This document shows, in pieces, positions 39,001 to 45,000 of a DNA stretch of 64,000 bases. The position numbers were made by a program. The DNA comes from Escherichia coli (GTDB lineage: Bacteria > Pseudomonadota > Gammaproteobacteria > Enterobacterales > Enterobacteriaceae), in NCBI RefSeq assembly GCF_001677475.2, contig NZ_CP012498.1; one strand, 5' to 3'. Positions within the stretch are counted from its first letter, which is position 1. Each line of letters begins with the position of its first letter.

Positions 39001-42000
39001 GTGGCTCTGGTACTGATGGTGCTGGACCATGCAAACCGCATTCTGCATCTGGATCAGACGTGGATGTTTCTGGCCGGGCGGGGCGCGTTTCCGCTGTTTG
39101 CCCTGGTGTGGGGGGGGAATCTGTCCCGTCATGCGCATATCCGGCAGTCGGCCATTAACCGGCTGTGGGGATGGGCTGTGATTGCCCAGTTCGCGTATTA
39201 CGTTGCCGGCTTTCCCTGGTATGAAGGGAATATCCTGTTTGCCTTTGCGGTTGCGGCACAGATGCTGACGTGGTGTGAAACGCGCAGTTGGTGGCGTTTG
39301 GTGGGGGTCATATTGCTGCTGGCAGCGTGGCTGCCTTTGTCTGGCACCAGTTACGGCATTGCCGGGCTACTAATGCTGGCGGTCAGCCACAGGCTGTACA
39401 GGGAGAAAGACAGAACGGAACGTCTGGCGCTGGTTGCCTGCCTGCTGGCCGTGATTCCTGCGCTTAACCTCGCCACCAGTGATGCGGCGGCTGTAGCTGG
39501 CCTTGTGATGACGGTGCTGACCGTTGGTCTGGTGTCGTGTGCAGGGAAATCACTACCCCGTTTCTGGCCCGGGGATTTTTTCCCGATTTTCTATGCCTGT
39601 CATCTGGCTGTGCTGGGCGTTCTGGCACTGTGACGGGTGTGGTATCTTTGACTGTAACAGGATTATTCGTCAGAGGCAGAACACAGCATGACAGAGCAGA
39701 AGCGACCGGTACTGACACTGAAGCGGAAAACGGAAGGAGAGACGCCTGTCCGCAGCCGGAAAACCATCATCAATGTCACCACGCCACCAAAATGGAAGGT
39801 GAAAAAGCAGAAGCTGGCCGAGAAAGCGGCCCGGGAAGCAGAGCTGGCGGCAAAAAAAGCGCAGGCCAGGCAGGCGCTGTCCATTTATCTGACTCTGCCT
39901 TCACTGGATGAGGCCGTGAACACCCTGAAGCCCTGGTGGCCGGGATTATTTGACGGTGACACACCCCGGCTTCTGGCCTGCGGTATCCGTGACGTGTTAC
40001 TGGAAGACGTGGTGCAGCGGAATATCCCGCTCTCGCATAAAAAACTGCGCAGGGCGCTGAAGGCCATTACCCGTTCAGAAAGCTATCTGTGTGCCATGAA
40101 AGCCGGTGCCTGCCGGTATGACACGGAAGGGTATGTGACGGAGCATATTTCTCAGGAGGAGGAAGCGTATGCGGCAGCGCGTCTGGATAAAATCCGCCGC
40201 CAGAACCGGATAAAGGCAGAACTTCAGGCCGTGCTTGATGAGAAATAAAAAAAAGCCTCCATCAGAGAGAGGAGGCAGGGAAATAAGGCTTAAAAGGAAA
40301 TAACTTCCGTACCCGAAAGGAAGCCAGTCCACTGAATTATTTACCACAATAATACTGACGACTGAAAGGGAGGGACAGAAAAATGAATGGATTCAGAAAC
40401 AGTTCACGGAACGCTCAGGTCTGGCGCTGGCAGCGTGCCGGCGGGCTGCCTGCATAGCTCCCCGGACAGACTGGCAGCAGTTTGCCCGGAAAAGGGCTGA
40501 ACACTGCCACCGGCGCTGCCGGGGAAGGGTGTAACGAAAAAAGCAGCCTTCATTACTCCAGGAGTCAGAAGGCTGAATAATGCATGAGATTTACTTTTTT
40601 AATCTCCGGTCGGGCAGTATGACCGGACAATTCTGAGTAGCACAGAGTTTTTTCCGTATTAAGTCGTGATTTTATATTTTGTGATTTATTTCACAAAATA
40701 AGGTGTTATTCAATGTGTGCTGCAATATTCAGGATGTCTGAAATAAAGGAGCCATTTATTTGATATGGAGAATAATATGAGGAAATATATTCCACTGGTA
40801 TTATTTATCTTTTCATGGCCGGTATTGTCTGCAGATATTCATGGACGGGGTGTTCGTGTACTGGATGGTGATACCATCGAGGTAATGGACTTACTGAAGG
40901 CGGTGCGGATCAGGCTGGTAAATATTGATGCACCGGAAAAGAAACAGGATTATGGCCGCTGGTCGACAGACATGATGAAATCACTGGTTACAGGAAAAAC
41001 GGTTACCGTCACATATTTTCAGAGAGATCGTTATGGTCGTATTCTCGGGCAGGTTTATGCACCAGACGGAATGAATGTTAATCAGTTCATGGTCCGGGCC
41101 GGGGCTGCATGGGTATATGAGCAGTACAACACAGCTCCCGTGCTGCCTGTCCTTCAGAACGAAGCCAGACAACAAAAACGTGGGATCTGGCCAGATGCTG
41201 ATCCGGTTCCACCCTGGATATGGAGATACCGTAAATAAAGCGATGGCAATCTTATCATTCATCTGTTCTCAGCGGGAATCAAAATGGCGAAAACAAAACA
41301 GGAATGGCTGTATCAGTTACGGCGATGTTCATCAGTCAATATGCTGGAAAAAATTATTCATAAAAACAGAGACAGCTTATCGGGCAGTGAACGTGAATCA
41401 TTTAATTCAGCAGCAGACCACCGGTTAGCGGAATTAATCACCGGAAAGTTATATGACGGGATACCAAAAGAGATATGGAAATATGTAAGGTAATAATTCA
41501 GCATAGTTAATCACCAGGAGCAGATAAATAATGAAGCTGATTATTTTTATTCTTATTGTTCTGATTATTGCAGCGTTACTTATCCGGATTATCCTCAGAA
41601 GTGTAAATCAGCATTCTCCCTTGCTGATGCAATTGCATGCGGCAGGTATACGGACCGGTGATGCAGAGCGAATACTGTCCAGCGGTGAATACTGGCAACG
41701 TCAGAAGACGCTTCTGACAGAAAGGGAAGTCAGTTTTATGAAAGGACTGTTCAGAATTGTGGATATGAAGCGGTGGTATCTGTGTCCGCAGGTACGGGTT
41801 GCGGATATCGTCCAGCTGAACGGGAATATCCGCCACGATCCCGTCCGTGGTGGCAGTTATTCAGGATGGTGTCTCAGTGGCATGTTGATGTGGTTATCGT
41901 TGAGCGGCATTCGTTCAGTATTGTTGCAGCAGTAGAGCTGGATGATGCCAGCCATTTACGACCGGAACGCAGACGCCGGGATATTCTTCTGGAAGAGGTT

Positions 42001-45000
42001 CTGAGGCAGGCTGGTATTCAGTTGCTCAGAAGCCAAGATGCCAGAAAACTGCTGCAGATGACCAGAGAATGGCTGAATACAACAGGGGCAGCTCAGCAGT
42101 CACCGGAACATCGTAGCTGACGCCTTCGCGTTGCTCAGTTGTCCAACCCCGGAAACGGGAAAAAGCAAGTTTTCCCCGTCCCCGGCGTTTTCGGTATTAT
42201 TTAGTGAATGGCATTTGTCATATATACAAACATAATATCAACAAGATAAATTAACACGGAAAGCCCGATATTAATATTGGTTTCTTTTAACAGTGCTGAG
42301 GATTCATGAGAAATGGTCAGTGTTTTTCTGGTTTTGATTTGTTGTACCAGAAACCATGTATTAAGAATGGCGATAAGAAAATAGGCAAGGTAAATTGCGT
42401 TAACCATACTATCAACTCTCGTAAAATAAGTGAAAACAGAAACTCACAGCTATCTGACAGATAACGAACGATATCGTTATTATCTTTTTTAGGGGATTTT
42501 ACGTACAAACAGGTATGGAACAATTCGGGAAATGCTGATAATTATTAAGGTTATCAGATGATTAACCGACAGGCTGAAGTGTGGTACTATCGCTGCGGGT
42601 GTCTGAGCCTTTCTGGTTCAGGCAAGACGCAGGTACCAGAAATGCGAAGACCCCACTCGTTAATCCATTAACTCGTGAGGTCTGCATGAAGTTCCTAGCA
42701 GTTCTGATTGTAGCCTCTTCTTTGTAGAGAGGTCAAAGTTTTGTATGACGAAATATGCCCTTATCGGGTTGCTCGCCGTGTGCGCCACGGTGTTGTGTTT
42801 TTCACTGATATTCAGGGAACGGTTATGTGAACTGAATATTCACAGGGGAAATACAGTGGTGCAGGTAACTTTGGCCTACGAAGCACGGAAGTAAGCTGCC
42901 GGGCGGGGACGGAAGTCCCCGTTTTCCGGAAGTGTGAGGTATTTCAGGGGCAGACACCCGACATGCCAGAAACAGCCGGTCCCGCCCGGGGCCGGCATCC
43001 TGGTTAAGGCATTTCCAGCTTTTCAGTCATTTCATTATCAAAATCACATTAAACGGTCGTAATCAGACATGATTTGTGCGCCAACACAGATCATCGTCAC
43101 AACTTTCAAGTCGCTGATTTCAAAAAACTGTAGTATCCTCTACGAAACGATCCCTGTTTGAGAATTGAGGAGGCGAGATGTCGCAGACAGAAAATGCAGT
43201 GACCTCCTCATCAGGTACAAAGCGAGCATACCGAAAAGGTAATCCTCTGACGCTTGCAGAACGTCAGCAGGCATCTCTGGCAAGAAAACGTGCCACACAT
43301 AAAGAACTCAGAGTGTTCATTCCTGCTGCGTTAAAAGCGCAATTACAGGAGATGTGTGAAGCTGAAGGTGTTACTCAGGCTGAGATGATTGCTGAACTGA
43401 TAAAGCAGAAGAGTGCTTTCAGCTAACTAAAATGTAGCGACATCACATTCTTGCCTGTTTCTGGTGTGCGTGATAGATTGCTGATCGTTTAAGGAATTTT
43501 GTGGCTGGCCACGCCATAAGGTGGCAGGGAACTGGTTCTGATGTGGATGTACAGGAGCCAGAAAAGTGAAAACCCCGATAATCTCCTTCAAGTTTGGCGA
43601 CATGAAAGATTACCGGGGCCCCATAAAACCGCATAGCCAACAATCAAGCTATGTGGGGAGTATAGTTATATGCCCGGAAAAATTCAAGACCTCTTTCTGT
43701 GCTCACTCCTTCTGCGCATTGTAAGTGCTGGATGGTGTGGCTGAGCTTCAACAAACTTATTACCGCCAGGTAAAGAACCCGAATCCGGTGTTCACACCCC
43801 GTGAAGGAGCAGGAACGCTGCCGTTCTGCGAAAAACTGATGGAAAAGGCGGTGGGCTTCACCTCCCGTTTTGATTTCGCCATTCATGTGGCACATGCCCG
43901 CTCCCGGGGCCTGCGTCGACGCATGCCACCGGTACTGCGTCGCCGGGCTATTGATGCGTTGCTGCAGGGGCTGTGTTTCCACTATGACCCGCTGGCCAAC
44001 CGCGTCCAGTGCTCCATCACCACGCTGGCCATTGAGTGCGGACTGGCGACGGAGTCTGCTGCCGGAAAACTCTCCATCACCCGGGCCACACGGGCCCTGA
44101 CGTTCCTTGCAGAGCTGGGACTGATTACCTACCAGACGGAATATGACCCGCTTATCGGGTGCTACATTCCGACCGATATCACGTTCACACCGGCGCTGTT
44201 TGCCGCCCTTGATGTGTCTGAGGATGCAGTGGCAGCTGCGCGCCGCAGTCGTGTTGAATGGGAAAACAGGCAGCGCAAAAAGCAGGGACTGAATGCACTG
44301 GGTATGGATGAACTAATGGCGAAAGCCTGGCGTTTTGTGCGTGAGCGTTTCCGTAGTTACCAGACAGAGCTTAAGTCCCGTGGAATAAAGCGTGCCCGTG
44401 CGCGTCGCGATGCGGACAGGCAGCGTCAGGATATCGTCACCCTGGTGAAACGGCAGCTGACGCGTGAAATCGCGGAAGGACGTTTCACTGGCAATCATGA
44501 GGCTGTAAAACGCGAAGTGGAGCGTCGTGTGAAGGAGCGCATGATTCTGTCACGTAACTGTAATTACAGCCGGCTGGCCACCGCTTCCCCCTGAAAGTAA
44601 CCTGCACTGAATAATCCGGGCCCGCGCCGGAGGCATCTGCACGCCTGAAGCCTGTCCGCGAACAAAAAAGCAGCGCCATATACAAAAAACAACCTCATCA
44701 TCCACCTTCTGGTGCATCCGGTTTCCCCTGTTTTTGATACAAAACACGCCTCACAGACGGGAAATTTTGCTTATCCACATTAAACTGCAAGGGTCTTCTC
44801 CATAAAGTTACAACCGTTCATGTCATAAAGCGCCAGCCGCCAGCCTTACAGGGTGCAATGTATCTTTTAAACACCTGTTTATATCTCCTTTAAACTACTT
44901 AACTACATTCATTTAAAAAGAAAACCTATTCACTGCCTGTCCTTTGGACAGACAGATATGCACCTCCCACCGCAAGCGGCGGGCCCCGACCGGAGCCACT

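What the first reader, a model, noticed from the sequence alone, without database searches (positions are those of the whole stretch)
41531..42120. DUF2726-like gene split by a frameshift
Two overlapping ORFs in different frames together cover what looks like one DUF2726-type (restriction-endonuclease-like fold) protein: N-terminal TM and YLCPQVRVADIV in one frame, SQWHVDVVIVERHSF...AVELDDASH in the other, with the switch near 41830-41865. It is either a decaying pseudogene or a sequencing indel.
Basis: partly seen in the sequence, partly recalled or inferred. Interest (0 to 1): 0.35.

Follow-up and report, generated by a model that had tools for sequence, protein, structure and literature searches.

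The report
Frameshifted DUF2726 nuclease pseudogene on IncF plasmid
A small plasmid gene for a membrane-anchored, restriction-enzyme-like nuclease of unknown role has lost one base and is a genuine, inherited dead gene rather than a sequencing mistake, which is an ordinary finding.

Summary
Window 41531-42120 is the IncF-plasmid gene often labelled "yihA". It normally encodes a 196-aa DUF2726 protein and lies between hha and the hok/srnB-copB-repA replicon. Compared with intact 591-bp copies, the window lacks one G: CCGGCC has become CCGCC, with the remaining G at 41832. This splits the Pfam match into profile positions 2-38 (frame of 41531-41935) and 43-111 (frame of 41773-42120). Re-inserting the G restores one continuous match (E 8e-20).

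The exact 134-aa frameshift product is on 47 contigs from NCBI assemblies and independent SRA-run assemblies. Four fetched loci carry the identical frameshift region, while their flanks differ from the window by 0-32 substitutions. One of them keeps the ancestral codon 169, so decay continued after the shift. There is no slippery site or long homopolymer, and about 58 other genes in the window are intact.

The intact protein models as an N-terminal transmembrane helix plus a Vsr/DUF559-like PD-(D/E)XK nuclease core. The shift separates the first core helix and strand from the invariant D120, E136, D138 and H142. Many other independently disrupted alleles of this gene exist. This is an ordinary finding of low interest.

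The parts
41531..42120 (+). Whole DUF2726 ('yihA') pseudogene: 590 bp where intact copies have 591 bp
   Evidence: Alignment to L001 3132-3722 and L002 11144-11734. The restored translation gives a full DUF2726 match.
41531..41935 (+). ORF1, the only piece with the native start and ribosome-binding site (AGGAG, 10 nt upstream). It has 101 native residues (transmembrane helix 2-25, linker helices, first core helix with E66, first core strand WYLCPQVRV) followed by a 33-residue out-of-frame tail.
   Evidence: The exact product P0001 is found on 47 contigs.
41832..41832 (+). Frameshift site: a single G where intact genes have GG (CCGGCC to CCGCC), at codon 102 of the 196-codon gene
   Evidence: The same 70-nt sequence is present in L006-L009.
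41833..42120 (+). Untranslated remnant of the C-terminal 94 codons in the original frame. It holds the invariant D120, E136-L-D138-D, H142 and R150-D151. All 4-6 lineage-specific non-synonymous changes of the gene lie here: Q106P, R127H, P164Q and H169Q, plus G179R and V188A at columns that also vary among intact alleles.
   Evidence: Pfam hit of ORF2.
41284..41493 (+). Intact hha/rmoA-type gene 37 nt upstream; probably co-transcribed with the DUF2726 gene (inference from spacing and conserved order)
   Evidence: Pfam HHA, E 9.7e-22. Same order in L001, L002 and L003.

Best explanation
This is a genuine, vertically inherited pseudogene of the IncF accessory gene for a DUF2726 protein. The intact protein has an N-terminal membrane anchor and a Vsr/DUF559-like PD-(D/E)XK nuclease domain; its biological role is unknown. 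Loss of one G in CCGGCC at codon 102 shifts the frame. Translation from the native start then gives a 134-aa product that keeps only the membrane helix, the linker, and the first helix and strand of the nuclease core. It lacks the strands that carry the invariant acidic and histidine residues, so nuclease function is lost (inferred). The downstream part is no longer read in its original frame and is drifting. The gene is dispensable for plasmid replication and transfer, and it is knocked out repeatedly and independently in different plasmid lineages.
Against: No reads were examined directly. The many contigs could include closely related isolates of one outbreak clone, so the number of truly independent lineages is smaller than 47. 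No plasmid in PLSDB and no complete RefSeq E. coli genome carries this allele, so the lineage is known only from draft or short-read assemblies. Upstream of the shift the lineage-specific changes are 3 synonymous and 0 non-synonymous. Against 3 synonymous and 6 non-synonymous downstream, my own hand calculation gives a Fisher test p of about 0.09. This leaves a small opening for residual constraint on the N-terminal product or for a recent shift. Loss of nuclease activity is inferred, not measured. No activity has been shown for any member of this plasmid subfamily.
Confidence: 0.93

Rival explanations
1. It is a sequencing or assembly indel: the real plasmid has an intact gene and the missing G is an error, for example a compression at the GC-rich CCGGCC.
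For: It is a single-base difference in a short GC-rich palindromic context. No complete reference plasmid carries it.
Against: The identical frameshift product is on 47 contigs from different runs and assemblers. The fetched loci differ from the window elsewhere by up to 32 substitutions yet share the deletion. The run is only 2 bases long, which is not a typical homopolymer error. Thousands of assemblies call the neighbouring intact allele correctly. Apart from this single-base shift and one 61-bp deletion, none of the roughly 60 genes checked in the window changes frame.
Confidence: 0.03
2. It is programmed recoding: the two frames are joined by ribosomal -1 frameshifting or transcriptional slippage to make the full-length nuclease at a regulated level.
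For: The two ORFs overlap by 163 nt (41773-41935), which is the geometry such systems need.
Against: There is no slippery heptamer in any frame and no A/T run in the overlap. More than 2000 homologous copies are encoded in one frame. The downstream frame has taken non-conservative changes, including at the nearly invariant P164.
Confidence: 0.01
3. The truncated 134-aa membrane-anchored N-terminal fragment is itself a retained, functional product, and loss of the nuclease half was selected, for instance because the nuclease is costly.
For: Upstream of the shift the lineage-specific changes are 3 synonymous and 0 non-synonymous. The native start and ribosome-binding site are intact. The allele persists in a diversified lineage.
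Against: The numbers are too small to be significant. Sub-lineage variants show non-synonymous changes in the fragment, including R81W at a conserved site. Other plasmids inactivate the gene at many different positions, which suggests simple loss rather than a specific truncation. A neighbouring accessory gene, the ANR-family regulator, is also deleted in the same lineage, which suggests general erosion of this region.
Confidence: 0.03

Closest known systems
IncF plasmid DUF2726 protein ('YihA' of R100-type plasmids; e.g. WP_000766808.1, WP_000766788.1)
   Same: Same locus (finO - nuc - hha - DUF2726 - repA region). DNA identity is 97.5%, and the restored protein is 96% identical to the main 196-aa cluster P0005.
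   Different: One base is missing at codon 102. There are also 4-6 lineage-specific amino-acid changes downstream in the original frame (Q106P, R127H, P164Q, H169Q, and G179R/V188A at variable columns). It is not translated as one protein.
Vsr / DUF559 / I-Bth0305I branch of the PD-(D/E)XK nuclease superfamily
   Different: It has an N-terminal transmembrane helix and about 35 residues of helical linker. No mismatch-repair or homing context is present, and no biochemical activity has been shown. The Pfam scores for DUF559 and MTES_1575 are below their cut-offs.
Other naturally disrupted alleles of the same plasmid gene
   Same: These include frameshifted, truncated or fused products such as P0039 (157 aa, 115 member sequences), P0052, P0055, P0080, P0006, P0010, P0017, P0026, P0032 and the in-frame deletion P0122. 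The outcome is the same: loss of an intact nuclease core.
   Different: The lesions and positions differ, so each is an independent event.

Membership tests
Pfam PF10881 (DUF2726) | Score above the curated gathering threshold (24.7 bits) over most of the 126-position profile | tested here: met
   The restored 196-aa protein scores 71.3 bits, E 7.9e-20, profile 2-111. As encoded, only the C-terminal fragment passes (50.8 bits); the N-terminal fragment scores 14.9 bits.
Pfam PF10881 (DUF2726) | A single uninterrupted reading frame encoding the domain (a functional member rather than a pseudogene) | tested here: not met
   A 1-bp deletion at 41832 splits the domain between two frames.
PD-(D/E)XK nuclease superfamily, Vsr/DUF559-like branch | An alpha-beta-beta-beta-alpha-beta core fold similar to solved members | tested here: met
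PD-(D/E)XK nuclease superfamily, Vsr/DUF559-like branch | Conserved acidic and histidine residues on the core strands | tested here: met
   E66, D120, E136, D138 and H142 are invariant in 20 homologues down to 52% identity. Their assignment as catalytic residues is inferred, not shown.
PD-(D/E)XK nuclease superfamily, Vsr/DUF559-like branch | Demonstrated metal-dependent nuclease activity | not testable with these tools
   The searched literature contains no biochemical data for this subfamily.
Programmed ribosomal frameshift genes | A slippery heptamer or homopolymer at the frame junction, conserved among homologues | tested here: not met
   There is no X_XXY_YYZ heptamer in any frame and no run of 5 or more bases in 41773-41935. 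Homologues are encoded in a single frame.
Known anti-phage defence proteins (PADLOC-DB) | A match to any defence-system model | tested here: not met
   No family matched at E up to 1. NCBIfam also gave none.

The most novel reading that the evidence does not exclude
The frameshift allele is not neutral decay but a selected change in this IncF lineage, which also carries a type VI secretion system. Either the 134-aa membrane-anchored N-terminal fragment has kept or gained a function, or removing the nuclease half relieved a cost. This would give a first handle on what the uncharacterised plasmid DUF2726 nuclease does.
Probability: 0.04. Interest if true: 0.3.

Novelty: already known. Interest (0 to 1): 0.07.

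Why it matters
It matters little. For annotation, 41531-42120 should be marked as one pseudogene rather than two hypothetical genes. NCBI already holds the 134-aa fragment as a 'hypothetical protein' (GAB5124890.1). The case also shows that the choice between sequencing error and real pseudogene can be settled without reads, by looking up the exact frameshift product in other assemblies. More broadly, this conserved but uncharacterised membrane-anchored nuclease gene is lost repeatedly in IncF plasmids, so it is accessory rather than part of the replication or transfer core.

Tried and rejected
1. I searched for the same allele in PLSDB plasmids and in complete RefSeq E. coli genomes with a 191-nt query across the shift. 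Nothing reached 99% identity. This at first looked like support for a one-off error, but the exact-protein look-up overturned that.
2. Exact look-ups of the C-terminal ORF (115 aa from the GTG start, and 84 aa from the ATG start) found nothing in the collection, presumably because gene callers rarely call it. L009 does have an 84-aa call, with H169.
4. PADLOC and NCBIfam gave no hits.
5. I looked for recoding signals and found none.
6. The promoter and terminator scan around the gene gave nothing above shuffled expectation.
7. The literature holds no functional study of the plasmid DUF2726 protein. Two papers treat plasmid 'yihA' as the chromosomal GTPase, an attribution that Pfam does not support: DUF2726 is the only hit above its cut-off and no GTPase family appears.

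Full report
**What is there**

The window is part of an F-type conjugative plasmid of Escherichia. The layout, by comparison with the annotated relatives AP025752, CP012500 and CP057155, is:

- tra genes up to about 40 kb
- finO at 39688-40245
- a staphylococcal-nuclease homologue at 40765-41238
- an hha/rmoA-type gene at 41284-41493
- the region in question at 41531-42120
- a hok/srnB toxin gene at 42745-42894
- copB at 43178-43426 and IncFII repA at 43737-44591
- a plasmid-borne type VI secretion cluster from about 52.9 kb

**Checking the observation**

Pfam DUF2726 matches ORF1 at profile positions 2-38 and ORF2 at positions 43-111. These are two consecutive parts of one domain in two frames. 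More than 4500 plasmid records hold similar DNA, and the best are 97.5% identical and annotated 'DUF2726 domain-containing protein' as a single 591-bp gene.

Alignment to two intact copies shows one gap only: CCGGCC in the intact genes is CCGCC in the window, with the surviving G at 41832, which is codon 102 of 196. Putting the G back yields a 196-aa protein with a single DUF2726 match of 71.3 bits.

**Error or real allele?**

Neither PLSDB nor the complete RefSeq E. coli genomes contain this allele. Nothing reached 99% identity across the shift.

However, an exact-sequence look-up of the 134-aa frameshift product found it on 47 contigs from NCBI and from assemblies of public sequencing runs. 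It is deposited as hypothetical protein GAB5124890.1. Two single-substitution variants with the same out-of-frame tail were also found.

I fetched four carrying loci: SRR25942434, SRR30293507, GCA_036681075.1 and GCA_052859765.1. All have the identical 70-nt sequence around the shift, yet they differ from the window by 0, 4, 6 and 32 substitutions over 6.4 kb. The deletion is therefore inherited within a diversifying plasmid lineage.

One of these loci (L009) still has the ancestral CAC at codon 169 where the window has CAA. At least one change in the dead downstream part is therefore younger than the frameshift.

I compared about 60 genes with their counterparts in relatives. Only this gene and one other change frame in the window, and the other carries a clean 61-bp deletion rather than a single-base slip. 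The assembly is not generally error-prone.

There is no slippery heptamer and no homopolymer in the overlap of the two frames, so programmed recoding has no support.

**What the gene encodes and what the lesion does**

Homologues of 196-207 aa occur on plasmids of Escherichia, Salmonella, Enterobacter and Citrobacter. In an alignment of 20 sequences reaching down to 52% identity, 60 columns are invariant. They include:

- E66 on the first core helix
- the strand WYLCPQVRV
- D120
- E136-L-D138-D-A-S-H142
- R150-D151

An AlphaFold model built on that alignment has a mean pLDDT of 73.5. It shows an N-terminal helix (residues 2-25, hydrophobic, presumably a membrane anchor), two short linker helices, and an alpha-beta-beta-beta-alpha-beta core.

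The frameshift falls between the first strand and the strands that carry D120 and E136/D138. The only product with a proper start is membrane anchor, linker, one helix and one strand, followed by 33 residues of missense. I infer that this is a null allele for nuclease activity. No activity has been measured for any member of the family, and PADLOC, NCBIfam and the searched literature give no function.

**Signs of decay and of recurrent loss**

Relative to the two intact references, the window lineage has three synonymous and no non-synonymous changes upstream of the shift. Downstream it has three synonymous and four to six non-synonymous changes, including P164Q at a nearly invariant proline. 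The numbers are too small for a firm test; my own hand calculation gives a Fisher p of about 0.09.

The protein database also holds many other disrupted versions of this same gene: frameshifts at other positions, fusions to foreign sequence, an in-frame deletion and an in-frame duplication.

The in-frame allele of the closest backbone relatives carries twelve non-synonymous against three synonymous lineage-specific changes, including H118Y at an invariant histidine. The gene is evidently expendable.

**Verdict**

Its either/or is resolved: this is a real, inherited and decaying pseudogene of a known, annotated plasmid gene family. Nothing here is novel. The residual alternatives (error, recoding, a functional truncated product) together deserve under 10%.

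Noticed in passing
window 40383-40531: The small ANR-family regulator gene between finO and the nuclease gene is also dead. A 61-bp deletion between short direct repeats (CGGGCTG) leaves its two ends in different frames. L006-L009 align to the window across this stretch with at most one gap, so they appear to share the deletion.
   Followed up: partly
window 41531-42120 (gene name in the literature): The plasmid gene is often labelled 'yihA'. Two papers (PMC4794485, PMC4155114) interpret it as the chromosomal GTP-binding cell-division protein YihA/EngB. In Pfam the plasmid protein passes the cut-off only for DUF2726 and matches no GTPase family, so this looks like a name collision.
   Followed up: partly
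L002 11144-11734 and L003 11144-11734: The in-frame DUF2726 allele of the closest backbone relatives (AP025752, CP012500) has 12 non-synonymous against 3 synonymous lineage-specific changes, including H118Y at an invariant position. It may be functionally decayed despite being intact.
   Followed up: partly
window 42200-42560: An AT-rich segment (GC about 0.33) with a 68-aa hydrophobic minus-strand ORF (42201-42407) replaces the 154-aa hypothetical gene found at this place in AP025752 (L002 11889-12353). It has no Pfam hit on record.
   Followed up: no
window 32420-33042: A vapBC toxin-antitoxin pair lies on the minus strand between traD and traI, as in the closest relatives.
   Followed up: no
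window 52958-64000: A plasmid-borne type VI secretion cluster (tssB, tssC, tssF, tssG, vgrG, PAAR, tssA, tssJ, tssK) whose proteins are 98-100% identical to those of CP057155. All genes checked are in a single frame.
   Followed up: no
window 40765-41238: The staphylococcal-nuclease homologue is intact here. No such gene is annotated at the corresponding place in the closest backbone relatives AP025752 and CP012500, where only about 330 bp separate the regulator gene from hha.
   Followed up: no
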